The notes below the pieces were generated by a model. That model had not been told where the DNA came from and did not search any database. It saw nothing but the letters and a program-made list of their open reading frames with translations. A stretch of 64,000 nucleotides of DNA, from NCBI GenBank assembly GCA_001938485.1, contig MQRK01230776.1:10558-74557 (forward strand). Reading direction: 5' to 3'. Of this stretch, positions 23,559 through 64,000 are shown one piece after another. Origin of the DNA: Girardia tigrina (Eukaryota). The translations under genes and the position numbers were made by a program. Numbering within the stretch: the first letter of the stretch is position 1; every line of letters starts with the position of its first letter.

Positions 23559-23645
23559 AGTTATGATATTAAATTTAATTTGTTTTAATAATATATAATT
23601 TTATAACTGAACGTGTTTTTGATGTATAATAAACCTATCGTAACT
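23559..23645 (+). repeat. 5' LTR (87 bp, AGTTA...TAACT)
   Basis: Direct repeat of 27946-28032 with one mismatch; immediately followed by the PBS. Confidence 0.95.
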
Positions 23646-26600
23646 GGCGACCACGCCGAAAATATTAACGCTGTAACGGGTAGCCAGCAGCGCAATTTAT
23701 TGTTAGCAGTGCTTCCAAAGAAAGCTCAGGAATTGCTGAGTTTTAATCTGAGAAAGTTCGATGGAAGAGACTCACAAGAAGCTGAAAGATGGCTGAAGGA
23801 TATTGAAGAATGGCTGTCCTTGAATGATTTGCCGTTNNNNNNNNNNNNNNNNNNNNNNNNNNNNNNNNNNNNNNNNNNNNNNNNNNNNNNNNNNNNNNNN
23901 NNNNCCTTAACTCAGGACGAAGCACGAGATTGGTTCCGTGAAACATTCACGGTGAAGAAGTCCATTTTGGATAGTTTTGTGGAGCTGGCAAATGTTAAAC
24001 AAGATGAGAAAGAAAAATTCGCGACTTTTGAAATTCGATTAAGGAAATTGCTTAACAATGTTTTTGACTCGGAGCTGAGTCGTGATGAAATATTGAACGA
24101 ATTTTTATCGAAACGGGTAAGAAGTACTGGACTCAGGGACTCGTTGGCGTTAAAGCCGGACATCAAAAGGGAAGACATGAGAATGCTTGCAAAGGTTTAT
24201 GAAAATCGGGAAGCCTCGTTGACAAGGCGAAAATCGAAGTCAATGGAATTCAAAATAGAAGATACATCAATCAGAACAAACCCCAAAATTATGCACAAGC
24301 TGTGAAATCGTTTCCGAAGATACAATCCCAACACAATCNNNNNNNNNNNNNNNNNNGATGTGATGAAAGTAATGGATTTGAAAATACCGATTATTTCAAA
24401 AAGTCTAATCAAACAAAACCAATTGATTCGGAATATCGTCAGACATCTCTGAAACAACAGCCTTCGGTATCGCTGAAGCAAATCGCTCGAAGACTTTATA
24501 ATAAATGCCTCCGCCGCACGATGAACGGTTGCAACCGGGACAGTGTTTTTGTTGTGGTGAAAACGATCACAGATGATTTCAATGTCCCCTTAAGGACAAA
24601 TGTTTAATATGTTGAAAACCGGGTCACTGTTTCAAGGAATGTAATCTGTTACGAAACGCGAATTTTGAGAAACCCAAATCGATATTATGCGTTTACGACG
24701 AACANNNNNNNNNNNNNNNNNNNNNNNNNNNNNNNNNNNNNNNNNNNNNNNNNNNNNNNNNNNNNNNNNNNNNNNNNNNNNNNNNNNNNNNNNNNNNNNN
24801 NNNNNNNNNNNNNNNNNNNNNNNNNNNNNAAATGTGAAAGAACTTGAAGTGATGCGAAGGACAAATGATGGTAGACTGTGGAGTATGATGGAGATATGTG
24901 GAATTCAACTGGAGATGTTATGGGATTCTGGAGCTTCGGTCACCGTTATGAGCGAAGATTATTGGGGGAAGATTGGAGAACCCACATTGTCAGATTCTGA
25001 AGTTAGATTAAGAGGGGTATTCTCGACGGGAACGGAGTCACCCATGGGTACCGCTGTATTGAAGGTACAATGGAATAGTAAAGTAAGAGATATCAAAGTG
25101 ATTTTTGTGAGAAAAATACACACTCAGTTTATTGGGGGTGTTGACACAATGCAATTATTTGGAGTTNNNNNNNNNNNNNNNNNNNNNNNNNNNNNNNNNN
25201 NNNNNNNNNNNNNNNNGTGAAAAACACCTACACAGATGACGAGCGGACGAAAATAGCATTAGACCGATACAAGAATCACAAACAAAAGACACTTGAATTT
25301 CTTGTCAAGGAATTTGGGAATATATTTATGGCATCGAAGTTCGATTTGGAACATACTCGGAAGGTCCAACATCACATCGTCACAAGAGGAGGGCCAATTA
25401 GTCAACATCCCCGCCGGCAATCAATGCATCTAGAAAGTAAGATCGATGAAATGATTCAGAATCTATTGCAGTCAAAGATTATACAGCCTTGTAAAAGTCC
25501 ATGGAACTCCCCGCTCGTTATTGTGGCGAAGAAAGACGGTACGATAAGAATGTGCGTTGATTATCGCCAATTGAATGCCGTTACAAATAGTGTATCTTTT
25601 CCGATGCCAGATACACATCATTTATTAGATTGCTTGGCTGAGGCTTGCTGGTTTTCTTCGATAGATTTGGGTCAAGCGTATTATCAAGTTGAGTTAACCG
25701 TGGAATCTAGGTTATGTACAGCATTCAGCACTAAACGGGGACAATTTTGTTTTAATCGCATGCCTTTTGGGCTATCTACAGCACCGGCGACTTTTCAGCG
25801 GTTGATGCATAATTTATTGGAAGGTATGATTTTAAGGGCGTTCTCGTGTATTTAGACGACATATTGGTATACGCAAAAACATTAGAAGAGCACGATTGTA
25901 TTCTGAGGGAAGTATTCCAACGATTGAGCTTGTGGGGACTGAAAATTAATCCCGAAAAACGTCAGTTCCACCAGAGGGAATTAGTATTTCTGGGTCATAC
26001 TGTGAATCCAGACGGTATCCGAACAAACAACGCGAAAATTAAGGAAATTGAGGAGGCGACTGAACCACAGTGTTCGACACAATTAAAGTCTTTTCTTGGT
26101 CTTACAAATTATTATCGTCGATTCATAAAGGATTATGCCAAGATAGCAATTCCACTCCATGCGGCAATTTCGGGATGTGACAAACAACTACAATGGACAA
26201 AAGAATGCCGAGAAAGTTTCAGGAAATTAAAACTGGCTCTTTGCAATGCTCCGGTTTTGGGCTATCCCAAATTAGATCGTGTTTTCATTTTGGACACCGA
26301 CGCTAGTTTTAGTGCAATCGGTGCAGTGTTGAGCCAACTGATGGAGAACTGGGAAGAGATAGTTATAGCTTATGGCTCCAGACATCTAAACGTACACGAG
26401 AAGGGCTACTGTGTAACGAGAAGGAGCTCTTGGCACCGCATGAATATGTTCTGCATTTTAAACAATACTTGTACGGGAAAAGATTTGTGGCTCGCACGGA
26501 CCATAAGGCCTTAATTTTTATGAACACTACAAAAAAACCAATAAGCCCACAATTCCAGACCTGGCTGGCAAACTTATCAGAATACGATTTCACACTGCAA

Positions 26601-27875
26601 TACAGGAAAGGTAAACAACAATGCTGATGGACTATCTCGTATAAAACAAGCTCTTTGCTCACAATGTGAAACTACACATAGTGAGGCTAAAGAGAAAAGG
26701 TCTAGAGTGCGATATTTGAATTCCTTACAAGAAGACTGTGATTTAATCAAAACGATCGAAGAAAGGCAGCGTTCTGATTTAGTGATAAAAGAAGCGTTTG
26801 ATACATTGATAGATGGCAATGAAAAATTTTCAAGCGTTTTTAAGAGAAGCTATCTATACAAATTGAGAAAACAGCTGGTAATATCAAATGGACTGTTGAT
26901 GGTCGAGATAAACAACAACCAGTTGACGATCGTACCTGAAGGATACGTATATGAACTTAATAAAAATATACATACCGATCTATGTCATCTTGGAATTAAA
27001 AAGATATTTAAATACACGCAGGATAATTTATACTGGCACTCTATGTACGAAACTATACAGCAATGTATAAACCAATGTGTCGTATGTGCAAAGATGAAAA
27101 TTGATCAAACAAGAACGAAAGAAACTCTATTGCCCCGAATCAGTAACAATTTCCTAGATCAAATTGTAGTAGACATCGCACACATGGATAAAGTTGCGTC
27201 CAACAAAAGATATCTGGTGGTCATTATAGATAGATTCAGTAAATTAGTGAGTTTAAATGCCGTTTCCAAACAGGATGAACATACCATATTTAAATGCATT
27301 CTGCACAATTGGATTTACGGGTTTGGGAAACCGTCACGTATCCTGATGGACAGGGGAAGACAATTTCAGAACGCATTTATGAGTAGTAGTTTGGGTCAGT
27401 TACAAATCAAACAAGAATTCAGCTCGCCCTACCAACACCAATCAAACGGTTTGGTAGAACTGGTGATTCGAACAGTGAGAGACATGATTGCCACTTCATT
27501 AAAAGGGAAGTGTATAGAAAAAAATTGGTATGATCTATTGCCACGAATCGAGTTTAGCTTAAATGCCACCATACAAGATTCAACAAAGTTCTCACCTTTT
27601 GAAATCGTTTTCGGACGAAAGTGAACATCCATTCCGCAGTTGGTTGCCATACTAAAACAAGAGATGAGATTATTGCAGAGGCCCGGATCAATTCCAGAAT
27701 GACAGCGGAGAAAATGAAAACATATCAAAATTCGATCCGAGGTGAAAGACATTTCAAGGAAGGGGAGATGGTACTGGTCAGGGTAGATCCTAACAAAAGG
27801 AACAAGAATGATTTCCAATATGAAGGCCCATACAAGATCATCAGGTTTACTTCGCCACATCAGGTAGAAATCTAA
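23646..27875 (+). pseudogene. gag-pol of the gypsy element (frameshifts/stops near 24300, 24612, 25840, 26425, 26620, 27622; several N gaps)
   Basis: Consecutive ORF-track fragments carry gag, CCHC knuckles, PR, RT, RH and IN motifs in gypsy order. Confidence 0.92.
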
Positions 27876-35358: not shown

Positions 35359-37765
35359 AGTTAGAATTTATTAGATATGTGTCCAGTTAGATAAAACGTT
35401 GTTTTAATAATTATTTGATTATGTATTTGCTTGTCACATTTTAGAATTATTTAATAAATTTTATTGTAGATGACTGATTTTCTTACTGGTGACCACGCCG
35501 AAATAAATGCAGTTACCAGAGCGAGGCGAGAAAAAGAAAATATTTTCCAATTTACCACAGAAGACACAAGAGTTGTTGGTTCCTAAACCAACATTTTTTG
35601 ATGGAGTATCCGATAAAGCTGAAGATTGGATTCAAACGACCAAGGATTTTGCAATTTTCAACCACATGGAATTGAATTTTGCATTCGATATGTTACTGCG
35701 AGGGGTGCCAAACTGTTATGGCAAAAATTCAGTAGCCACAGAGATAGTATTGTCAATGAAGAAGTGGAAAATGGTTTTCCGAAACATTTGCTGACGTGCG
35801 GATAGTTTGTGACAAAATGAAAGATTTGTCATTCGTTCAACAAAGAGCTAACGAGAAGTACCGAAGTTTTGAGATTAGAGTTCGGAAAATGGTGAATGAC
35901 GTTTTCAATCTAAAGTTACCCGCAGAAGAAATGACTTGATTATTTGTATTTCAGGGACTGAAATGTGACAAATTGAGAGTCTTTTGCATTGGATCTTTCA
36001 TTAAGTGATGACAGGCGCCAAGAACTGACTAGCAATTTGGAAAAATTGACAGTGCGTCAGGAGATCAATGCGGTCAAACCCAAGTATGCCGATATGGTAT
36101 CCAAAAATACCAAACCAGAGTATGCGCCTCAGTTTACACAGCCCAGTCATTCTGTACGACAGCCTTCCCGAATTCCAGACAGATCACAGTCTATTGTCGC
36201 TAATAATGATCGTTTTTTTATAATAAATATTTGCGTAACACAACCCCATCTCGAGATCAGTCTGAAGATCGATATTGTCAGAATAATAAGCCTCAGAGAT
36301 CTATGAAAATGATAGCAAAGGAGTTTTATAATAAGTGTAGATGTATTGCCCCGTCGAATCCAGAGGTTCTCCGTCCCGGTGCATCTTTCTGTTGTGGAGA
36401 CATAACCCATCAAAGAAGAGAATGTCCCTTGAGAAATCGTTGTTTAATATGCGGTAAGTACGATTAAGATTGTTATTTGGCAACAAAACCAAATCAAATT
36501 TCCCAAAGAAGAATAATGTGCATCCATGATGATGAAACTGATGACCCTATCGAAGAAAAATTACAGGAAATTGAAGAAGATAACGACGAAAAAAACCGAT
36601 ATCAACCCCTCGTGCCTATCTCATCGGTGGGGTTGAGTCAGTAAATATTATTGAAGGTAGATATAGAGGACGAAGAATGAGACAGGTGATGAAAGAGAGG
36701 ATGTTCCAGAAAGCAGATGGTAGAATATAGAGTTTGATGGATTGTAATGGAATTAATGTTGAAATGTTATTGGATTCCGGTGCTTCAATCACAGTTATGA
36801 GCGAAGATAACTGGCATCGGATAGGAAGACCATATATGCAGAGATCAGACATTAAACTTTCAGGTGTTTTTTCTACAAGTTCTGAAAGGTGTTTAGGTAA
36901 AATATATGTTGATATTTTGTGGTACGGTGTTAAGGGGTAAAAAGAAATAGTGATTGTGCGAAATATATCCCCTGGATTTATTGAAGAAATCGATATGATG
37001 AGAATGTGTGGCATAGGCTTAACGGAAGTGAATACTATAGATGCTTCTGACTTGGAATTGATATTTAATAATCGTGATCGTATTACTGCCGCATTAAGGA
37101 GTTTAATTGACAAGTCAAACTTGCCATTAACTTTACCTGTTAAAGAATATGGATCAATTTTTGTGGCTTCAAAATTTGATTTAGGCCACACAACGGTAAT
37201 AAAACATGAAATCCGGACTACCGGGTCCACCAATTTCTGCAAATCCTAGACGCCAGCCCATGCATCTTAAAGAAAAGATTGATAAATTAGTGTTTGATTT
37301 ATTAAAAGGTAATATTATTAAGTCATGTAAGAGTCCTTATAATTCTCCTCTGGTTAATGTACCGAAAAAAGATGAATCCTTCAGAATGTGCTTAGATTTT
37401 AGACGACTGAATAATGTTACGGAGAAATTTACATTTCCTGTGCCGGATATTTACACATTGTTGGATACTTTAGGGGGGTCAGTAATTTTTTGGTCCATTG
37501 ATTTAGGTCAAGCGTATTATCAGGTGGAACTGGATGAAGCATCAAAATTAAAAACAGCTTTTAGTACTAAAATCGGTCAATTTTGATTCAATCGCTTACC
37601 GTTTGGATTATGCACAGCTGCAGCAACTTTCCAGAGCCTTATGAATTTATTGTTTAAGGATTTGCTTTATAAAGGAGTTATTGTATATTTAAATAATATA
37701 TTAATTTATGCTAAGAATGAGAAAGACCCTTTAAGTATATTAAAACAAGTTTTTACAAATTTGTC
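35359..37765 (+). mobile_element. 3'-truncated Ty3/gypsy element related to 23559-28032 (5' LTR 35359-35487, gag, PR, partial RT)
   Basis: LTR candidate AGTTAGAA...TTCTTACT, PBS TGGTGACCACGCCG, MLLDSGAS protease, ASKFDLG, SIDLGQAYYQVEL, VYLNN (decayed YLDD); many stops. Confidence 0.9.
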
Positions 37766-37783
37766 TAGGTGCGCCGTTTCCAT

Positions 37784-38011
37784 AACGACTCTAAGTCTTA
37801 AGAACATCTGGATAGTGCATCCGTGTTTTATATTGCAGCTCCCTGCAGTTATCCCATCCAGAAGCTCTGTACTACGGAGAATCAATCTCCGTAAGCGCAC
37901 TGGAATCCCTTCTTTGTGTCACAATCTTTCCTTTACAGTCTCGATCCCATCGTTCAGTTGGACTTCAAGGAGAACAGTTTTACCTGAAATTGTTCTCACG
38001 CATATTTGAAT
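37784..38011 (-). pseudogene. Ubiquitin/NEDD8-like domain, degenerate
   Basis: Exactly 76 codons IQICVRTISGKTVLLEVQLNDGIETVKERL*HKEGIPVRLRRLILRSTELLDGITAGSCNIKHGCTIQMFLRLRVV, colinear with ubiquitin; one stop, GG replaced by VV. Confidence 0.88.
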
Positions 38012-38796
38012 GCTTTCAGCTCTCTCGCTCACATTCTTTGAATCTTACAATGATCCGTCTTCTGCTAACTTGGCTGTCGTCTGAAAGGCTTTCAATGTCC
38101 TTTCTCCTTGAATATCTGTAATTGTAGTTATTTTTTCAACTCTCCCCAAGACTTCATTCCGAATTTGGATTCCCCCGAGGGACCGTCTCCGGTTGTGCGC
38201 CTTATCATCTAGAATCAGAGATGGGCGTCTCATTTTTTTTGAGTGAGAGTTGACCCCTCCAGACAAATCAAAGCCTTTCCACATATTGCTGCTTAGCAAG
38301 CTTTTTCCTCGAGCATTTGAAGCGATTGCCACTCTCGGCTCCTGCAACGCCACAGGCACAGAGAAATTACGAAGAGCTTTCTCACATTGGTTGAAAAATT
38401 TCACCCCCCCCCAAGTCGCAACAAAAGAGGGGATGAAGTAATGAAAATGTTTTTTATTTTATTAATAATATAAAGTATATTTTTAAAATTATTATAAATA
38501 TTAAAACTACAAGAAAAAATATCAATTTTAAACTTTAAACAAAAGTCATCGTATAAAATCACCTCGGTTGCCGGCGGCTGCCGACAACCACACTCTGCTA
38601 CCAAATTTTATCGTTCAACAATTTGCGTAGTGAGGCTGCCGCGCTTCGTCTTTGGAGTTTCTGAATTCGCTCGGAGACAAATTATATCGTCGCTAACCTT
38701 AAGTGAACAAAGGCACTCAAAAGTCCGCCGAAACTCTGCATTGTATAGCTACCAATCGTCAATTGTGGTCCTTAAGAGGACCGTATTTCTTTCGCA

Positions 38797-39084
38797 ATTA
38801 TTAGAAGCACTTGAGGAACCACCTGTGAAATAATCTGGTTGAAACAATTTCCGGATATTCGAATTCAGTACGTAATCGAGAGTGGTACTATTCAATTCAA
38901 CTATGACGCTGATCGGCACACACTTTCCATGAATTCCAGAAGTAAAGTAAACATAAATTCTCTGTAATTGTAAATCCCTGTCGCTTTCGTAAACACCAGT
39001 GGTCGGTTTGATTCCGTGTTCATTGGTGATTATTTTCCAAAACTTCGTTGCAATACTGTTTCCACAACTTTGAAATATTCTCAT
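38797..39084 (-). pseudogene. Divergent beta-tubulin N-terminal fragment (~first 100 aa)
   Basis: CGNSIATKFWKIITNEHGIKPTTGVYESDRDLQLQRIYVYF...GKCVP..VIVEL...TLDYV...LFQPDYF..GSSSASNN is colinear with beta-tubulin up to GAGNN. Confidence 0.88.
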
Positions 39085-39401
39085 TAATTCCTACCATTGA
39101 TCATGAATGTCTTCACAAATTTTAGGTGTTGAAATTTCTGATCGGGAATCCTTACATGATTATCTTCAAATATATTTATAAAATAATCCACATTAAAAAA
39201 TATAGCCAAACGGCAAAGTTATCTGTTCTTTCAAATAAGACATTCAATTTCAGTTAGTGAATATTTTTCTTTAATGAAAAGAAATCGATATCGACAGCAA
39301 TAATTTTATTCGATATCAAAATCATGTAACAATAATTCGTTTAAACAAACGAATTCAATTAACCAATTTTTAAATTTCTAATATGTATTTTTTTAAATAT
39401 A

Positions 39402-39480
39402 CAGTAGATACCGCTTAAAGAGAATATTTTTGGGACTTGAAAAAATGTTCTCTATAACCGATATTTCTCTTTAACAGATA
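39402..39480 (+). mobile_element. Tigger/pogo-like left terminus
   Basis: TA|CAGTAGATACCGCTTAAAGAGAAT followed by subterminal TCTCT(A/T)TAAC repeats; partner end not identified. Confidence 0.45.
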
Positions 39481-39564
39481 CTTTTTTATAAGGATAATTT
39501 TTAAAAAAATATCANNNNNNNNNNNNNNNNNNNNNNNNNNNNNNNNNNNNNNNNNNNNNNNNNN

Positions 39565-39610
<46 letters not shown>

Positions 39611-42323
39611 GTTATATAGATGTTATATTAATAATTTTTATTAAAACATTTTTTGACATAAATCTAATTTTTATTTTCCAATTTTAATAAAATTTTTAAT
39701 TCATTCTGAAACAAACACATCAAAAAATTGAAGAATAGTAGCGAATAAATGTAAAATTGGATAAATTGGAACATCGCCAAAAAGATAAATAATAATAAAA
39801 GCCCACGAAATGGATGCAAAAAAATCGCAAAATAATCAGAAAAATCGTATAAAAATCAAGAAGATATAAAAAAATCACAATCAACATCGAATAACAGGAA
39901 TTCTAAGAAAAAATAATTAAAAAAAATAATATTTTATTTTATTTCGTTATTTCAATCAATAAACACAAACATCGATGAAAAGTGACCGGTAAAATCAGGA
40001 AAAATTCGCAAAAATTGAGAAAAAGAAGTAAGCGATAGAAAATACGGAAGGACACGCAACGGAAGCAAAAAAAATATAGAAAGAAACACAATATTAATTA
40101 AATTAAAAATCATCCAAAAAATATCAAATATTCGATTGACCAATGAGTCCTACATTATGCGGACGTCATTGAAATAAATTACAATTAATCCAAAATAACG
40201 TAATGAGTTATAAAAACGCAATAATAATTAATATTTTTAAAAATCCGTAACAAATACAAATCGGAAATGTATCAAAATAAGTAGATTAAATGCAAAAAAA
40301 TTGAAAAATTATCAAAAATCAAAATAACAGGATTAACAAAATAACTTAACTCCACGTAAAAATCCGATTAAAGATCGACGTGAAAAACAGAAATCGAAAA
40401 ACAACGCACATAATAAATATTTGCAAAATCGCGTAAAATCACAAATAAAAGTATATGAAATAAAACCTCAACTCTCCTCTGATCGTACCAGAGTCGGATC
40501 GACACATTACGCTGATACCGTAAGGTAAAAAAAGTGATTTAAACATATAAAAATAAAGGTCATTTATAAAAAGGAATAAAAACTGACTTTGCAATGGAAT
40601 TTCCGGACAAATTTTGAACGACGCGCGTGGAATAGCGTCACCAACATGGTCCATGGATTTTGATAAACAAAATCATTCCGAAGGTCTAGAAAAAGGCTAA
40701 AAATGAATATTAAAAATAGCAAAATTAAAATAAAAGTACTTTCATGCCTAATCATCGTTACAAAATTTTCCAAAATTTTCTATTTTTGGAAAGTCTAAAA
40801 ATGGCACTGACGTGTTCCAATCGAAATTGGTCGTACGATTCCAAAACGTACGTGGACCAATTAAGAACGGACACGCGAAAATTTTAGAACAGAATCTCAG
40901 TATAAGTACTAAGTGAATCTTTAGACAAAATCAGATAAATTTTTGAGATGAAATTTTTAGAGACAAATTTTTGAGAAGACAAAAAACTGAATAAAATTTT
41001 TAGAACGAAATTTTGAGAATAAGAATCAGAATAAAACTTTTCAAGAAACTCCAAGAATAAAATTGCAACAGGTCAGTATCGTTGAATTTTCGCGACCGAG
41101 AATAAAAGTAGTGAGTTTCTCTTTCTCAGAGATCCCGAATATTTAAATTTTCTTTTCTACGAGTCGGTCGGTATATTTGTATATTTATTTTATGAAATAT
41201 ACATTGTATATTTATATAAAATATAAATTGTATATTTATTTTGTATATTGTATAAAATATTCAAATATAAATATTTTATTTATTTAATAAAATTGTATAT
41301 TTTATTGTATATTTATTTTATGAACAGGTTATCTAATTTTTTATTATTCTAATTATAATTTTTTTCATATTATCTATTTTTTATCTCATTTTGATTATAA
41401 TATTATTGTTGAGTCTTTCTTTTTAGTTTGATTAACTGAATAAAACTCTGATTTTATAAAATATATTTATTATCTACAATAATTACAAAAATCAAAGGTA
41501 GAGGATTTATGCTTTGTTTCGCTCCTGGACGATTTTATATTTGTTTCGAGAGTTTTAGCGACAACTCGAGTAACTGTGTTTTAGGGTTTAGATCACACTT
41601 TACAGCGTGATATATAAAAATATAATATTTAATATATAGTTAATGTTAATTACTTTTTATAATTCAAGATTCTCTTTTTGCCTCGAACTATTTCAGTGTG
41701 TTATAATTCAAGATTCTCTTTTGCCTCGCACTATTTCAGTGTGATTTTTAAGTGATTCTTTTCAAATTCTTGGCCAGTTTAAATACTACGGACGCTGTGC
41801 TGACAAATTCTCCTCACTTTGAATAAATAAACAGGTTCAAATTCCTTTCTTGTGATAATAAATAAATAGGTTCGAATTCCTTTCTCGTCTGAACTTTTAA
41901 AATCAACAACTTTTCTGTACTTTTAAACTTAATTAAAAATGACCTTATATACTAGGTCTTCCTTTTTAAAATCAACTTTATTTTAATTTAAATTTATTAT
42001 TTATTATTTCTTTTAAAATATCTGTCTTTCTTATTTACTTAAACCTTAAATATTTTATTTATTTATAAAAAAATATAATTTTATATTTATTTATCATAAA
42101 TATTCCATCTATGAAAAGTATAAATATTTATCAATATTTATTAATTTAAACAACAAATACATATAAATTTATAAAATTAAATATATTCCTCAACATTATT
42201 ATAACGATATTTGATAAATAATTTCTATCAATTAAATTTGAGTTAATTATCTTATTTAATAAAATGGTAAAATTTTACGGTTTCAACTCGAATACCCTTG
42301 GGTAGAGTAATCTTTAAAAAATT

Positions 42324-48312: not shown

Positions 48313-48941
48313 AATATTGTAAGATGCACTGACAAGAATTATTGTGGAAATTTCATCAGTTTGATTCTTCTGTAGCGAAACTTCGCCAAATTATTAAGTG
48401 GATAATCGACGATTCCTTTCAATTTGAAACTAAATATAAATAAACATCCATTTTATTATTTTTATTCCATGATTTATGTCGTCTAAATCAGAAGAAAATA
48501 AATAAACTGCACAAGTATTTATTTAAATCAAACTCTGAATCGGTAAACAACCGATTAAAACAAATTACTTAATTATTAATCGCAATTAATAAAAATTTAT
48601 TAATAAACACTTTCTTAATCTATTTATATTTTCATTTCCATATAAGTAACAATGAAGCTTCTCCTCTTGGCGTTCCTCAAACAACAAGTCTCCAGCAATA
48701 AATTATGTAGCCTTAATTTAAAATTATATACTTTAAAATTATCAAAATATATTACAATTCATTTAAACATAAAATTTTTTATTCATCTAACACAAATTCC
48801 TTATTTATAATTTATAATTATTTTATCCAATTAAAATTAAATTAAAGAAAATTTATTATTTTTGTTTCAATTTATCAAAATTTATTTTAGTATTTATCAA
48901 CAAAAATAAAGAATACAATTATTTTGTTAAATTACGATATT

Positions 48942-50327
48942 ATGAATAGCAATATTGAAGTAAATGACGATTTTACAAATAAAAATAATAAAACCCTTGA
49001 GTCAAGTGAATTGTGTACCACAAAACGGAGAAAATTAAAACGTATTCTGCCGTCAATTAAACAAAAATGTATTGAAATGTATCAAGAAGGAAAGATGATA
49101 AAAGACATAGTTCGAGAATGTAATGTAACACTATCCGATGTGTTTTACTATGTAAAAAGGTATAATAATTCAACCTCTTCAAATGGTAAAAATGAAAATT
49201 CGAATAAAATACAAATACCTTTACGTAAAAAAGTTGTGCATTTTTCAGTAAAACAAAAAGTCATCGAAATGTATCAAGAAGGATCGAAAGTAAAAGAAAT
49301 AGCTCAAAAATGTAATGTTTCAATGGGATACGTTTCAAATATTATGAAAAAATATAATAAAAAGCTATTGATAGATTCCAATAAAAACATAGACGACAAA
49401 AATATTTCTAAAGCTAATTCATCACTCAATGATAACGAATTTTCAAATACTAATAAAAGACCTTTGAAAAGGTATAAAGTTATTTCTCCTACAAAAAAAG
49501 TGAAAATAATTGAAATATATCAAGAGCAAAAGAATCTAAAAGAAATAGCTCGAGAATGTAATGTGACACAATATTGTGTATCTTATCATGTAAAGAGGTT
49601 TAATAAAGAACTATTTGCAAAATCGAGCAGGAACAAAGAAGATGAAGATCACTCAATCCTTAACTCACCGACTGATATAAACGAATATTCGAACATTAAC
49701 CGAATGCCTCTAAAAAGACCTCACGATCATCAAGTTGTGTCTCCTTCAAAGAAACAAAAAAATTGTGAAATATATCAAGAAGAAACAAAGTTAAATGAAA
49801 AAGCTCAAGAATGTGTTGTATCAGAAGATGCAATAAATAAATATATAAAAGTACACAATGACGAATTGTTAAAAATAAATATAAATGAGGAAGATAAAGA
49901 AGAAAGATTTATTGATTCAAGAATCAAACATATGTTAAATGAACAAAAATTAAAGGACATTGAAATGTATAAAAAAGGACACAAATTGTCGGAAATATCT
50001 CTCTTTTATGATAAATTATCGAAATATGCGCAAGACGTTTTCAAGAGGTACGATACACTCGCAAAAGTCACAAAAGAAAGCAAGGAAAATGACATTTTTC
50101 CTACAGACAAAATTGATAATTTATCAACAGGAAATAAAGATAGAAGAGAAAAGTTTGATATAAGTAAAAATATAACAGAAGAAAGTATAAAACAGTTAAA
50201 GTGTATCAATTTAAATCTGTCTGGAAAGTCGGTAGATGATATTGTGAGACTGCTCAAAGAACCGAAGGAAACCATTCAAAGATGGATAAACAATAAAGAT
50301 GAGATTATCGAAAACTGTTTTTATTAA
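48942..50327 (+). CDS. Multi-HTH DNA-binding protein (about 6 Tc1/paired/psq-like HTH modules), probable domesticated transposase-derived gene
   Basis: Intact 461-aa ORF from ATG 48942; repeated KQKxIEMYQEG...KEIAxxCNVSxxxVxxxxKxY modules; final GKSVDDIVRLLKEPKETIQRWINNKDEI; no DDE domain, no TIRs seen. Confidence 0.82.
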   Translation: MNSNIEVNDDFTNKNNKTLESSELCTTKRRKLKRILPSIKQKCIEMYQEGKMIKDIVRECNVTLSDVFYYVKRYNNSTSSNGKNENSNKIQIPLRKKVVHFSVKQKVIEMYQEGSKVKEIAQKCNVSMGYVSNIMKKYNKKLLIDSNKNIDDKNISKANSSLNDNEFSNTNKRPLKRYKVISPTKKVKIIEIYQEQKNLKEIARECNVTQYCVSYHVKRFNKELFAKSSRNKEDEDHSILNSPTDINEYSNINRMPLKRPHDHQVVSPSKKQKNCEIYQEETKLNEKAQECVVSEDAINKYIKVHNDELLKININEEDKEERFIDSRIKHMLNEQKLKDIEMYKKGHKLSEISLFYDKLSKYAQDVFKRYDTLAKVTKESKENDIFPTDKIDNLSTGNKDRREKFDISKNITEESIKQLKCINLNLSGKSVDDIVRLLKEPKETIQRWINNKDEIIENCFY

Positions 50328-55952: not shown

Positions 55953-56375
55953 TCATTTGTGACATGTATTGTTTGAATATATTCTTTTTCTAATTGGTGA
56001 AAGGAACCTGATGTTGATTATGATCATTGAAAAATTCTTCAAAGCTGGTGATCGCAGAGTGGCAGGTTGAGCGCGGCAGCCACACCCAGAGTTTTTCAAA
56101 TCGTGCCCTGTTGTTGTTTTCTGGATATCGAAATGTTTATCGAAATTTACTGTCCAATCACCAATTTTGGCTCTAAAGAGGGCCGTATTTCCTTCGCAAA
56201 TTTCTGCTTTCTCAGCTGAATATCCCAGTAGCGGCAGTACCACTCCCGTCTGCTGCAGTAAGAATTCTGTGATTTATCTTTCATCTTCGGTTTTCGATTC
56301 GGGAATTGATAGAGATATTAAAAGTTCTTGAATTTTCTTTAATTTCGATTTTAATGTCGTTCGAGCCGACTTCTC
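55953..56375 (-). pseudogene. Unknown gene-family fragment homologous to the module fused to tubulin at 38530-38796
   Basis: CEGNTALFRAKIGDW...GCGCRAQPAT vs CERNTVLLRTTIDDW...ECGCRQPPAT; one in-frame stop upstream. Confidence 0.55.
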
Positions 56376-57007
56376 CTATATCAAATAAGAAGCAGTGCTT
56401 CGCGCACTCATATCGCCGATTCAATGTTCGTCTTTTTTACTTTAGATTTCTCTAAAATTCTCCGATTCGATTTCGTTGGACGAGATTCAATTTTCCTTTA
56501 TTCTTTTTACTTTCAACAACGATAAGAAAAACCAATGAAAAAAATCAATATTGCTTAGTAATTTTTATTAGATATGAAAACTGTATGATAAATATTGCAG
56601 TAAAACAATGCCGATAATAAAAAAATAATTAAAAATTTCAAATAATAATTAAATTTTTTTTATAATTTACATTTTTCCATTTACAAAAACCAAATTAACC
56701 AATACATAAAATTTCCAAACTCAAAATTTTTTAATTTATTTTTTTTATATTCTCAAAAAGCTGGATTGGCATACAACTTCACATTTTGGACAGATGAAAT
56801 ACTCAATTGAATTAAATAGGTATTTACAGTAATTGTAGACATTGCAATTCTAAGAAAATACAAATTAATAAATGTGCGGAGCTCAAATAAAAAGTCACCA
56901 TTTTCGTAATTAGGATTTCGAAATAATGACCAAATGCTTTGATATCACGATATCTTATAACGTTTATTACATTTATTTTAATTGATGCATTAAAACAAAG
57001 AGACATA

Positions 57008-58490
57008 TACTGGTCGTCAAAATGATTAACGCAAACAACTTTTTGGGGATAATTATTTTTCCTTTGAAATATTTTTATTCTGCCAATATAAATTATTTTC
57101 CTTATTCAAGTACTTATTATTATATTAATATTTTTTCTTTTAATTTTGATTTGTTTAAATAATATTTGAATATTTATCACTTAGGCGGTTTTTTAAAACG
57201 TCAAAATGAATAACGCAAATTTATTTATTTAATTATTTCATTGAAATTTGTTAATTTTATTAAAGTTTATATATTATTTAAGTGATACATTTTTTTATTT
57301 TTTTTTGCTAAATCGTTATGTGAGACTGGAAAAATCTAAAACGAAATCGGAAATATTTTAAATGTTACTCGACATGCTGCTCGTGGTTTATGGGTTAATA
57401 TATCAAGGTCTCATCCTAAGAAAACTGGTAGAAAAGAATTATTACAAAAAAAGACAAATTGAAGATAAAACGATGTGTTTCAAGATTAATTGATGAAAAA
57501 ACGAAAGTAAATTCCTCAAAAATTAAACAAGAATGCGAACTAAATGTATCTACGTCTGCAGTACAACATTGTATGAGAAAGATAGGTTATAGATATAAGA
57601 AGGCGAAAACACAAATTGTTTTATCTTCGATGCATAAAAGAAAGAGAATTGAATACATAACCAATTGGATTTCCAATAATCACCCATGGGAAATCACTGT
57701 ATTTTCCGAAGAAAAGAGATTCTGCCTTGATGGTCCTGATTGCTGGTACTCATATAGCATAGATTCAGTTACATTGATTAGACCTAAGAGACAATGCGGG
57801 GGTGGAAGTTTAATGTTGTGGCTGATGGTCCTCCCGAATGGATTATTATCATATAGGGTTATTGAAGGAATTTTTAAAGCTAAGAGTTACGAAGCCTTAT
57901 TATGTGAAATAATTAAGTTAAACCTAGGGTCGAATTACTATTTTCAAGAGAACAATTGTTCAATCCACAAATCAAAGGCAATTAAGTCCTTTATGTTAAA
58001 TAGTGATATAAAAGTTCTAGAATGGCCATCAAAAAGTCCCGATATTAACATTGTAGAGTACATATGGAAAATGATTTCTGATACGGTTTATGACGGCGCA
58101 TCCTTTAGAAATAAATCTGAATTACTAAGTGTCATTAATAAATGTATTTTTGATTTAAATTCATGTAAAAAGGATATAATAAAAAAGTTATATGAAACAT
58201 TTCGAAAACGTTTAGCCACCATATTTTGTAAAAACGGTGGATTGTACAATAAAATGTAGCTTATGTTAATAAAATTAGTTTGCGTTATTCATTTTGACGT
58301 TTTAAAAAATCGCCTAAGTGATAAATATTCAAATATTATTTAAACAAAGCAAAATTAAAAGAAAAAATATTAATATAATAATAAGTATTTGAATAAGGAA
58401 AATAATTTATGTTGGCAGAATAAAAATATTTCAAAGGAAAAATAATTATCACTAAAAAGTTGTTTGCGTTAATCATTTTGACGACCAGTA
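57008..58490 (+). mobile_element. Tc1-like DD34E element with 212-bp IR-DR type TIRs
   Basis: TIRs 57008-57219 / 58279-58490, each with two CGTCAAAATGA(T/A)TAACGCAAA repeats; TA flanks; transposase 57459-58259 (VFSEEKRF, FQENNCSIH, SPDINIVE, 34 spacing). Confidence 0.95.
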
Positions 58491-60278: not shown

Positions 60279-61911
60279 TGTTGATATTTTGGTAAAGATA
60301 ATTTGAATAAAAACTTTATCTTAGGTAAACAAAATGAAGAATAATTTATATTTATTATTCGAAATAAGAAACATACATTGACTGGAATAACATAAATAAA
60401 AAAAATAAAAATATAAATTAGTAACAGTATCAAGTGTGGAGATTTCGTTTTTATTTGTTAATGACGAATAAAGCGATTTCATTTCATGATTCGATTTCAT
60501 TTCATTTTTGTGGCGTTTCCTTGATACCAGACTAATAATCCATAAATTGAAATTGGTATTAATATAACGAACCAAATTGATAATATAAACACTGTACATT
60601 GTAAATAAATATGTTAATTCGTTAATAGTAGAATTTGATCCACTGACCACTTTAATATTATTCATCAAATGGTTTTGTAAGGAAAGTACTTTGACAGATA
60701 AAGTCCAGCAGGTGATAACTATCGTGTAAATATTTTTTTTTGAAGAAGAAAACACTCAGGATAGTAGGTCTGTTATCCTGATTTAAACATAAACAGATCA
60801 ACGATATAATTGTAAGGTAAATATAATCAATCATCAAAACTAACGAATTACGACTTCTTAAGTGTTTGAATGAGCCTGAGACAATGTGGATTATTCATTA
60901 AACAAAATAGTGTGGGTTTATAGGAAATCATCAATATCGATCATAATCCGTTAGTCTTAGTCATTAAAGTTTAAGGAGCTTTGGAAGAAATGTACACCTT
61001 TTCATTCCTAATTATGTTCTATGTACTGGAAATATTTCGATGACTGGAACAAATTTGAAACAAAAAGAATTTGCAGAGGAAATTGATAACAAAAGCTGTT
61101 ATACACCATAAATATTTTTGACTTTCGAACCGAATTATTTTACATTGAACACGACAGGATGTCTAAACTTGCATGTCACAACTATAAATAAATTTAAGAG
61201 GTGGAGAATCCTATGTACAAGTACCGAAAAGTGAACCAAGCCTGTTACATAACAGTAACGTAAAATAAACAAAGTTAATATCTTTGTAAAAGCGGATTTC
61301 GACAAAACTCTCTTATTTTAATTTTAACAGTGACTTGTGATTCTTTTCCTTTTGCTTGGTGTCGCGCTGCGCATCCAATCAATAATTTTAGTCCTCAAGA
61401 GGACTTTTTCTCGTTCTCTTTCTTTGGCATACATAAGGGAATTCTGTACTGATGATAACGAACATGAATTCTTGAAAATCCGGGAATACTCCCGAAGATT
61501 ACTAATTAATTTCTTATTATCCGTATCATTTACAAGGGAATTAGTAAAGTTTAAATGCTTTCGCCAGTCTTTTGGTGATATAAAACTGATGAATAGTTTT
61601 TCTTTGGAGATTGATTCAAAATTATCCGATTTAACGGATTCTTTAATCATAAATTNNNNNNNNNNNNNNNNNNNNNNNNNNNNNNNNNNNNNNNNNNNNN
61701 NNNNNNNNNNNNNNNNNNNNNNNNNNNNNNNNNNNNNNNNNNNNNNNNNNNNNNNNNNNNNNNNNNNNNNNNNNNNNNNNNNNNNNNNNNNNNNNNNNNN
61801 NNNNNNNNNNNNNNNNNNNNNNNNNNNNNNNNNNNNNNNNNNNNNNNNNNNNNNNNNNNNNNNNNNNNNNNNNNNNNNNNNNNNNNNNNNNNNNGTAAAT
61901 TATTTCAACCA
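60279..61911 (-). repeat. Candidate 3' LTR of the Bel/Pao element
   Basis: Minus-strand PPT GGGGGGAGAAA (61912-61922) directly before TGGTTGAAAT; far end inferred from ...AATATCAACA at 60279. Confidence 0.45.
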
Positions 61912-64000
61912 TTTCTCCCCCCATTGACCGAACTTAAGCTAATTTATATATATATTTTTTTAATATTATTTTATTTATTATTTTAGCTTTTATTTTATTT
62001 TTTTTGTAATTAAAATTTTTTTACGTAATTTCTTTTACAAGAGATTTCTCCAACTTTCCCAGGATCTATTCCAGAACTCCTAGTTAGCGGCCACTTTCTA
62101 TTTTTCTTTTTTATAATATTAATTTTATCCAAACACTTCAAACCACGGAAACATTTTGATTTACAAACAGTCGATTATTGTTTAAATTTTTAATACAATT
62201 TTATTTATACTTTCCTCACATTATGAAAGTCATGAAAGAACTTTCGTTTTGAGATAAAGAAGTTCTTCTTGTGGAACCGTTCTACTTTTTTCTTTCTCTT
62301 TTTCCAACTCTCCATCCGTCGGAACACTGGATCAATTTTCTTTCTAGTTTTCCAATTTTTCAATCCGTAATCAATAACTTTTGATTGATCTAAAGTACTC
62401 GATGATGAAGTAACAGATTTGACGTATTCTATCCATTTGTTAATCCCATAGATTTTTGAATCCTTCCTTCGATATTCTATCACACCTAAATTCTCTCGTT
62501 GTTTCTCCACTCTCAGAATGAGTGTATCCGTTGAACAGAATTTTTTATTTTCAAACATTAATCCTTTACGAAGGTTTGTCCGTGACTTTTGGCTTACTTT
62601 TGGTATCTTATTTACCATTATTATTTCTCTTTTATTTTTACACGTTTTATTTTTATTTCTGTTCGAATACCTTCATTTGAGTTTTGCTCTTCTTTTGATA
62701 CATCATTTATTCCTTCTACAAAAAAGATTCTTAGTTTATTTTTTGAATTTTGCATTTTTTTCTTTTAACCCATTTTTCTCTATTTACTTTGTTGTGTTTC
62801 ATTATTTTTAAACCAAGTTTCTCTTCTGTTAAAGTTCTTTCCAATGACATATCCAATTGTTTTAGTTTCAACTTTTGATTTTTAATTTTTTCATATTCTA
62901 TTTCTTTTACTTTGAGCGCTACTTTTTCATCCTTCAACATTTTAATTTCCTTTTCTTTTTCAGTAACTCTATTTTCTAATTCCACATGAGATACTTTAAT
63001 TTTAGCATTTTCATATTGATATTTTTCTAATTCAGTATTTAATTCTTGTACTGTATAATTAGCGTAAAATAATTTTCTTATCAGATCATCGTCTCTCTTT
63101 TGTAACTCTTTTTGCATTGTTTGATATTCAGTTAATTCTCCTTGAAAATTACTATCTATTTCTATTATTTCATTTTCCTTGTCTTCCAAACTTTTTCCCA
63201 TTTGTTTAATTGTTTCTTCTCCATTTTCCAAAAGTATTTTCGTTTTCTCCAATTCTTTATATATTTTGACACAATCTTCAATTGTTGATTTTGATTCCTT
63301 TCTTCGAATTTCGATTTCTTTTTCTAAATTTTCCTTTTCTGATTTCATTTCCGATATTTGCTTTGCATTTCCGTTCAATATTTCACAATTTTTCAGCTGA
63401 TTTTTATTTTCATAGTTTTCACAATACAAATTATCGTATATTTTACCACTATATATCAGTTTGTTGGTTGACTCTTCAATTTCTTGTTCTTTGTTTTTCA
63501 ATTGTATCTTGAGACTTTTTACCGGAACAAACTGATATTTTAGTTCATTAAATTCTTTAGTTTTAATTTCAAGTTCTTCATCAATTTCCCAAAAATACAT
63601 TGGAATGCGTTCCGCAATCATCTCATCATCAATTTGTTGTGACACTCCAAATTTAGTAACAACTTTTTCTTTCATATCCCCATGAACTTTTCCAACAACA
63701 GTCCATCCCAACACGGTTCTTCTGGCTATTGGATGAGAGATATCACCGATTTTTTCCTCCAAAAGAGTTATGCAAATACGGATAATCTAAACCAATTAAA
63801 ACTTGTACGATTTCATCTTTATTTATTTTTGTGAAATGTATGTCCCGTAAATGTCTCCAATTCTTTGATTCTTTTCCCCAATTTATTGTAGTCACTCCAT
63901 CAATCACTTTTTTAACAACTAGTGGCTGGAATTTAAACGTCTCGTGTAGTTCAATTCCCTTTATCATTGAAGATACTCTTTCTGTTCGCACTATTTCTTC
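61912..64000 (-). mobile_element. Bel/Pao LTR retrotransposon derivative (protease, coiled coil, post-integrase remnant, PPT); continues beyond window
   Basis: WRHLRDIHF...VQVLIGLDY...PIARRTVLGWTVVG and FWEIDE (Pao protease region); RKWPLTR...PGKVG at ~62050-62100 (cf. DUF5641 KWPLGRV..PGKDG). Confidence 0.8.

What the first reader, a model, noticed from the sequence alone, without database searches (positions are those of the whole stretch)
38530..39084. Beta-tubulin N-terminus fused in frame to an unknown module that recurs 17 kb away
Seen: tubulin similarity stops exactly at SASNN (38797), and the same frame continues CERNTVLLRTTIDDW*...ECGCRQPPAT. An independent copy without tubulin at 55953-56375 reads CEGNTALFRAKIGDW...GCGCRAQPAT, and the DNA also aligns (38751-38797 vs 56153-56200). 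The junction has potential microhomology (tubulin NNW would be AATAATTGG; here AATAATTGC). Inference: a chimeric gene made by capture or template switching into a dispersed, unrecognised gene or TE family.
Basis: partly seen in the sequence, partly recalled or inferred. Interest (0 to 1): 0.7.

Follow-up and report, generated by a model that had tools for sequence, protein, structure and literature searches.

The report
Retrotransposon LTR carrying histone mRNA end
The tubulin scrap and the 'unknown module' both sit inside the end repeat of an abundant jumping gene, which strings bits of host messenger RNAs into one likely translated reading frame and carries a copy of the hairpin that ends the host's histone messages, which it may use to tie its activity to dividing cells.

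Summary
39713-38608 (-) is the 5' LTR of a BEL/Pao retrotransposon, followed by its primer site and a truncated ubiquitin-Gag frame; 56759-56049 is a solo LTR of a sister family. The only DNA they share (46 nt) is the host's histone-mRNA 3' cassette (GAGAA element, stem-loop, GATTG), matching the host's H3, H2A and H2B genes. 'CERNT..DW' is its translation; 'ECGCRQPP' is the primer site. The 'tubulin start' is a phosphatase scrap; tubulin begins at 39066 and lacks the host intron. Related LTRs carry other host scraps (H2B, cyclophilin, PP1, PRMT, Vac14, RBMX2) in the same frame, and LTR-start-to-primer-site distances are multiples of three in 12 of 12 scored copies, so the frame is likely translated. 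Whether the hairpin is used is open: it survives many swaps on both sides, but sister LTRs lack it and RNA contigs show no end there. Earlier scan notes saw such cargo cassettes in this genome; none shown to me named the histone cassette.

The parts
38608..39713 (-). 5' LTR, family A, of a BEL/Pao element (TGTTTCAG start; holds an N gap at 39516-39565)
   Evidence: Shared extent in copies, sharp 3' end, 5-bp duplications and a polypurine tract in other copies, coordinates
39305..39317 (-). Conserved GATATCGAATAAA block; TATA-like element or poly(A) signal (not resolved)
   Evidence: Seen in several LTR families; RNA-guess contig cover begins just 3' of it (weak)
38401..39243 (-). Relic of the LTR-started frame (ORF1): MSYLKEQ start, cargo, hairpin, LTR tail, primer site, leader, stop at a G run; broken in this copy
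39067..39138 (-). Captured PPP (PP1/calcineurin-like) phosphatase fragment
   Evidence: copy L066; longer piece in L335, E 2e-11
38797..39066 (-). Captured beta-tubulin fragment, about codons 12-102, without the codon-19 intron
38752..38796 (-). Histone-mRNA 3' cassette: TGCGAA element, stem-loop GGTCCTCTTAAGGACC (38782-38767), GATTG (38757-38753)
   Evidence: Rfam Histone3 21.2 bits, below the gathering score of 34; match to host histone genes
38608..38751 (-). Family-A LTR tail after the cassette (one of at least four tail types)
38586..38603 (-). Primer-binding site TGGTAGCAGAGTGTGGTT, tRNA-Met type; reads VAECG in ORF1
38404..38585 (-). AT-rich leader, open in the ORF1 frame
   Evidence: 0 stops; shuffles mean 5.0, P(0) 0.004
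37760..38404 (-). 5' end of ORF2: about 130 aa of unknown kind, ubiquitin-like domain (about 38011-37784), first codons of Gag; broken, and cut off by a Gypsy pol
56049..56759 (-). Solo LTR, family B, flanked by the 5-bp duplication CCAGC (56760-56764, 56044-56048)
56154..56199 (-). Histone-mRNA 3' cassette of LTR B; stem-loop GGCCCTCTTTAGAGCC at 56184-56169
56200..56253 (-). Short relic of histone H2B coding sequence (traced through sister LTRs; not significant against the host gene alone)
   Evidence: negative control

Best explanation
Both loci are LTRs of BEL/Pao retrotransposons whose first reading frame starts inside the LTR and is likely translated through captured host-mRNA scraps, a histone-mRNA 3' cassette, the primer site and the leader. 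Shown: LTR anatomy, cargo identity, frame register, identity of the cassette with host histone genes. Inferred: host mRNAs packaged with the element are copied in by template switching during reverse transcription; because both LTRs are rebuilt from one template, each capture spreads to every daughter and solo LTR; only captures that keep the frame survive, because ribosomes must run to the G-run junction where ORF2 (ubiquitin-Gag-Pol) is reached by a stop-start overlap or by read-through; host deubiquitinases would then cut after LRLRGG to free Gag. The tubulin scrap is a frame-keeping passenger. The histone cassette most likely came in with a histone capture; one sub-clade keeps it intact and may use it as an SLBP site (about 0.35), but it is optional for the wider clade.
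For: LTR: sharp ends; family-B exact 5-bp duplication in 11 of 24 scored rows (8 distinct insertions), 18 of 24 with at most 1 mismatch, 6 of 30 loci unscorable; primer-site pattern 451 hits, control 0. BEL/Pao: DUF1759 E 3.9e-12, rve E 1.2e-8, triple Cys-His and protease motif. Cargo in the primer-site frame: tubulin 6 of 8 copies, H2B, cyclophilin, PRMT_C, Vac14, PP1, RBMX2 with one stop. LTR ATG to primer site is 0 mod 3 in 12 of 12 scored copies, 9 lengths from 264 to 669 nt. Seven main hairpin-to-LTR-end lengths (40, 58, 112, 124, 136, 163, 175) are all 1 mod 3. Leader stop-free in 9 of 24 copies where shuffles give 5-12 stops. Tubulin lacks the intron present in 6 of 6 host genes whose 5' end was seen; against host exon 2 it has no stop (neutral P 0.004-0.02) and milder substitutions than neutral (P at most 0.007). 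Ubiquitin E 1.3e-15 in frame with Gag in L302. Cassette: perfect hairpin behind 15 of 30 host H3 loci, recognisable behind 12 of 18 printed H2A/H2B frames; SLBP domain gene present.
Against: No protein or ribosome data. ORF1 is not shown to join Gag: at the G run 13 of 27 copies stop, 6 read on, 8 fall in the third frame, and leader length is 0/1/2 mod 3 in 9/8/7 of 24 copies. The 12-of-12 count left out copies with N or without a recognisable start motif; L298 and L318 are shifted, and L320 and L325 cross the primer site in another frame. In the unselected primer-site set the frame was the longest open one in only 12 of 25 loci. Families are related, so lengths are not independent. The constraint seen could date from a diverged host paralogue that I did not find. 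Genomic copies decay neutrally (pN/pS 0.94; 7 of 22 frameshifted, 7 of 22 with stops).
Confidence: 0.7

Rival explanations
1. The histone cassette is the working 3' end of this sub-clade's RNA: the 3' LTR is cut just after the hairpin, SLBP binds, and the element's RNA is made, translated and destroyed like histone mRNA, in S phase.
For: All three parts of the host signal are kept in sense orientation. The cassette stays in 31 of 31 tubulin LTRs with at least four different tails, and behind other cargos. Subfamily-level changes in the 16-mer fall only on the three positions that vary among host genes, two of them one base pair; 23 of 73 rows change both sides of that pair, 0 of 500 shuffles reach it. 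In one family the LTR ends 24 nt after the hairpin. 676 pattern hits, control 0; of 30 exact-16-mer loci read, 22 were LTR-type, 2 histone genes, 6 unassigned.
Against: Only 3 of 30 primer-site loci have the hairpin; cyclophilin LTRs with the same leader and Gag lack it. The pair change may be one event, or a second capture from a GGTCC-type histone gene; flanking positions are about as conserved. Contig cover runs on past the hairpin into tails and flanks. The hairpin folds as well in 5' LTRs (median P 0.97), where a cut would truncate the RNA. No U7 over the Rfam cut-off.
Confidence: 0.3
2. Everything in the slot, hairpin included, is neutral baggage; frames look open only because captured coding DNA is stop-free and the families share ancestors.
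For: Neutral decay of copies; hairpin absent from sister LTRs; G-run frame mixed.
Against: Seven unrelated cargo types share one register with the primer site; nine lengths are multiples of three; an AT-rich non-cargo leader is open.
Confidence: 0.15
3. The locus is a domesticated chimeric host gene (tubulin fused to a new protein module).
For: Open 113-aa frame; signs of past protein-level constraint.
Against: Over a thousand candidates with neutral decay; this copy has stops and a frameshift; the module is explained at the DNA level.
Confidence: 0.03

Closest known systems
BEL/Pao LTR retrotransposons (PMC3118150, passages read; it reports BEL/Pao families in Schmidtea)
   Same: DUF1759 Gag, Cys-His motifs, protease, rve integrase near the 3' LTR, TG-start LTRs, 5-bp duplication
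   Different: Reading frame inside the LTR with swappable cargo, histone cassette, ubiquitin before Gag ('ubiquitin' occurs 0 times in that paper's main text); some LTRs end in AA, not CA
LTR-mediated retrocopies (Tan et al. 2016, PMC5131818, passages read)
   Same: Partial, intron-less, multi-gene mRNA captures with short microsimilarity, ascribed to template switching; includes a Pao BATUMI case
   Different: There the retrocopy replaces part of the internal ORFs between the LTRs; here it lies inside the LTR, in frame, beside coding elements, and reaches high copy number as solo LTRs
Replication-dependent histone mRNA 3' end (Rfam RF00032; planarian stem-loop histones in PMC10954484, passages read)
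   Same: Same 6-bp stem and 4-nt loop, upstream and downstream elements as this host's histone genes
   Different: Sits in a retrotransposon LTR, inside an open frame with no stop before it; function untested
Yeast Ty1 (recalled, no call)
   Same: GAG starts in the 5' LTR and runs through a tRNA-iMet primer site
   Different: Copia-type; no cargo slot, hairpin or ubiquitin that I recall
GalEa Copia elements (PMC5445492, passages read)
   Same: TGGTAGCAGAGC primer site, TGT..CA LTRs, 5-bp duplication
   Different: The coding domains here are BEL/Pao, not Copia
U7 and human LTR12 (PMC11417402, abstract and outline only)
   Same: A link between histone-processing signals and LTRs
   Different: There U7 represses LTRs through HDE-like motifs; no stem-loop capture in the abstract

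Membership tests
BEL/Pao LTR retrotransposon | LTRs with TG start, sharp ends and 5-bp target duplication | tested here: met
   some ends are AA rather than CA
BEL/Pao LTR retrotransposon | Primer site after the 5' LTR, polypurine tract before the 3' LTR | tested here: met
   only fragments of the matching tRNA were found
BEL/Pao LTR retrotransposon | DUF1759 Gag with three Cys-His motifs, then protease (motif labels recalled) | tested here: met
BEL/Pao LTR retrotransposon | Integrase after RT, next to the 3' LTR | tested here: inconclusive
   rve upstream of a 3' LTR in L063; no single full-length element with RT was read
BEL/Pao LTR retrotransposon | RT phylogeny within BEL/Pao | not tested
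   No RT tree built
Histone 3' UTR stem-loop (RF00032) | Rfam gathering score | tested here: not met
   21.2 bits against 34; the host's own genes were not scored
Histone 3' UTR stem-loop (RF00032) | Identity with the host's histone 3' signal | tested here: met
Histone 3' UTR stem-loop (RF00032) | RNA ends just after the hairpin without poly(A), bound by SLBP | not testable with these tools
   Only contigs were available
LTR-mediated retrocopy | Intron loss and partial mRNA | tested here: met
LTR-mediated retrocopy | Microsimilarity at the junction | tested here: inconclusive
   3-4 nt at the 3' junction; donor gene not identified
LTR-mediated retrocopy | Cargo replaces internal ORFs between two LTRs | tested here: not met
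   Cargo lies within the LTR, also in solo LTRs
GalEa Copia | Copia coding domains | tested here: not met
   DUF1759 Gag

The most novel reading that the evidence does not exclude
A clade of animal retrotransposons has hijacked the histone-mRNA 3' end pathway: its LTR carries a working stem-loop cassette, so that its RNA is processed and translated through SLBP only in S-phase stem cells, while a translated cargo slot in the same LTR samples host mRNAs in frame and a ubiquitin fusion frees Gag from whatever the slot encodes.
Probability: 0.25. Interest if true: 0.92.

Novelty: new variant of a known kind. Interest (0 to 1): 0.68.

Why it matters
[quoted passage not shown] A transposon using that signal would be a new way to time retrotransposition to dividing cells, and it can be tested directly with 3' end mapping and SLBP knock-down. 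Even if the hairpin is idle, an LTR that is a translated, in-frame collector of host mRNA pieces explains many odd chimeric fragments in this genome and is a standing source of shuffled proteins. It also warns annotators: hundreds of 'tubulin' and 'histone stem-loop' hits here are LTRs. Ten full-text searches (listings only, apart from the papers named) showed no description of either feature; Repbase and subscription journals were not covered, and no supplements were read.

Tried and rejected
Helitron or SINE-like end (3' hairpins): dropped once duplications, primer site and polypurine tract appeared. TGF-beta or cystine-knot reading of the Cys peptide: no Pfam hit. GalEa Copia: rejected on coding domains. 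A 1151-aa open frame with tubulin was mostly N. Expanded diverged tubulin genes as donors: 20 loci fetched were alpha-like with no match to the fragment's start; of 17 beta candidates fetched, 6 showed a 5' end, best DNA match 73% over 97 nt; donor not found. pN/pS 0.30 in protein-picked copies is ascertainment. RNA: four probable-RNA contig sets dropped about 50-fold past the hairpin on the window copy, but that tail is only 6 of 31 tubulin LTRs, and on a short-tail copy cover continued to 17 nt past the hairpin and into flanks; no conclusion on ends. Hairpin occlusion in 5' LTRs: not seen. U7: one hit below cut-off, no match to the downstream element by eye. Intact tRNA-iMet gene: not found. 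A phase-0 intron from 38562 to 38343 that would join ORF1 to ORF2 is possible (GT in 20 of 21, CAG in 18 of 21) but post hoc, and the open leader argues against it. ESM Atlas: no usable hit. Host taxon: not established; a freshwater flatworm is my inference only.

Full report
Observation. The frame 39087-38749 (-) and the second locus read as stated. Their DNA match is 46 nt at 82.6%, E 1.3e-5. The window lies in a 1.43-Gb AT-rich genome. The host taxon was not established; a freshwater flatworm is my inference.

Both loci are repeats. The DNA 38450-38800 gave 1276 first-look candidates, of which 40 were scored at 89-96% apart from the window itself; most fetched copies also cover the tubulin part. 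The tubulin protein gave 1812 candidates and the second locus 1892. Copies end sharply at GATCA before unique flanks and start TGTT. In family B, 11 of 24 scored rows (8 distinct insertions) have an exact 5-bp duplication and 18 have at most one mismatch; 6 of 30 loci could not be scored, and two rows have a polypurine tract instead. The window's B copy is a solo LTR flanked by CCAGC. The A copy is followed by TGGTAGCAGAGTGTGGTT, a tRNA-Met-type primer site (PMC5445492 passages; 451 genome hits, control 0; only tRNA fragments found).

Family. Behind the primer site lies a repeated region (125 candidates, 40 scored) that in other copies encodes about 130 unknown residues, a ubiquitin-like domain ending LRLRGG, then Gag with DUF1759, three Cys-His motifs and a protease motif (Pfam ubiquitin E 1.3e-15, DUF1759 E 3.9e-12). 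An integrase lies before a 3' LTR A. This is BEL/Pao by domains; no RT tree was built. The ubiquitin region also matches behind the primer site in other families. The window copy is cut off at about 37760 against a Gypsy pol.

What the module is. Rfam gave a sub-threshold Histone3 hit at 38744-38787 (21.2 bits). The host's H3 genes end TG(A/C)GAA..GGCCCTCTTTAGGGCC..TGATTG (perfect hairpin in 15 of 30 loci); H2A and H2B genes carry the same cassette, mostly with GGTCC..GGACC (12 of 18 printed frames). LTR B copies carry the H3-type 16-mer and LTR A the GGTCC type, each with both flanking elements. The exact 16-mer has 259 genome hits and a degenerate cassette 676, controls 0; of 30 exact-hit loci read, 22 were LTR-type, 2 histone genes and 6 unassigned. 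Several LTRs have H2B coding DNA just upstream, 80% identical to a host H2B gene, which suggests how the cassette came in. An SLBP-domain gene is present; U7 was not found. So CERNTVLLRTTIDDW is the cassette read as codons and VAECGCRQPP the primer site.

The cargo. The residues before CGN are a PPP phosphatase scrap; an earlier scan note (e1-9046388) mentions a phosphatase-tubulin fusion and reads its carrier as rolling-circle, which the LTR evidence here does not support for this locus. Tubulin runs from about codon 12 to 102 and lacks the codon-19 intron seen in 6 of 6 host genes whose 5' end was fetched. Other LTRs with the same primer site carry H2B, cyclophilin, PRMT, Vac14, PP1 and RBMX2 pieces. 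This fits template switching onto packaged mRNA as in Tan et al. 2016 (passages; lead from note e1-9162187), except that the cargo is inside the LTR.

The frame. Each identified cargo is in register with the primer-site frame. From the LTR's own ATG to the primer site the distance is a multiple of three in 12 of 12 scored copies, nine lengths; copies with N or without the start motif were left out, and L298, L318, L320 and L325 are exceptions seen elsewhere. The seven main hairpin-to-end lengths share one remainder. The AT-rich leader is stop-free in 9 of 24 copies, against 5-12 stops in shuffles. Tubulin shows no stop and mild substitutions relative to host exon 2, while genomic copies decay neutrally, as dead insertions should. 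I infer that active elements translate this frame. How it reaches Gag is open: at the G run 13 of 27 copies stop on a TGA that overlaps the GTG of the next frame, 6 read through and 8 are in the third frame. Coupled stop-start or read-through, followed by deubiquitinase cleavage, is my best guess. A Gag frame starting in the LTR is known from yeast Ty1 (recalled).

Is the hairpin used? For: it is kept in 31 of 31 tubulin LTRs across at least four tails and behind several cargos; common variants touch only positions that vary in host genes, including one compensated pair (possibly a single event). Against: only 3 of 30 primer-site loci have it and sister LTRs with the same Gag lack it; flanks are about as conserved; it folds equally in 5' LTRs. 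RNA contigs do not decide. I put use through SLBP at about 0.3-0.35.

Literature. Ten searches listed nothing on histone stem-loops in LTRs, in-frame cargo within LTRs or ubiquitin-Gag in BEL/Pao. Read as passages: PMC5445492, PMC5131818, PMC3118150, PMC10954484, PMC4558846; abstract and outline: PMC11417402; bioRxiv 10.64898/2026.10.14.759114 had 0 occurrences of 'transpos' or the flatworm terms. No supplements were read; Repbase entries for planarian BEL families, which I could not see, may bear on novelty. Earlier scan notes describe shared-tail cargo cassettes in this genome; the word search for the stem-loop and the sequence search found none.

Verdict. Real; a new variant of a known kind; interest 0.68.

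Noticed in passing
window 61390-61405 (-), with BEL-like frames at 62205-63786: A third hairpin look-alike, AGTCCT-CTTG-AGGACT followed by TTGATTGG (reads KVLLRTKIIDW), probably in the LTR of another BEL family.
   Followed up: partly
L099, L100, L104, L114 (and L125): A separate repeat with the exact histone 16-mer, GAGAA and TGATTG, a cyclophilin-like piece upstream and a ubiquitin-like frame downstream; LTR status not established.
   Followed up: partly
L117, L120, L004, L024: LTRs that end in AA, not CA, with clean 5-bp duplications.
   Followed up: partly
L133, L135, L139, L141, L146, L147, L152: An H2B-like fragment lies downstream of the hairpin in one tail type, so captures occur on both sides.
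   Followed up: no
window 38401-38430 (-): ORF1 ends in LLLRLGGG, resembling the ubiquitin C-terminus, at a variable G run.
   Followed up: partly
L062, L064: LTR A and LTR B are each followed by the same leader type, different from the window's, so LTRs and internal regions recombine.
   Followed up: no
L191-L210: Many strongly diverged alpha-tubulin genes with long C-terminal extensions.
   Followed up: no
window 35977-37759 (+) and 23607-27624 (+): Two related decayed Gypsy elements; L018 and L028 show a family-A LTR inserted in the same Gypsy family about 60 nt from the window's break point.
   Followed up: no
window 48891-50327 (+): 478-aa frame with repeated helix-turn-helix units, and a Tc1-like transposase frame at 57432-58259 (-) (label recalled).
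   Followed up: no
L300, L305, L307, L313, L103, L122: Open LTR cargos with no significant Pfam match or not scanned; L313 has a weak BTB hit, E 0.04.
   Followed up: partly
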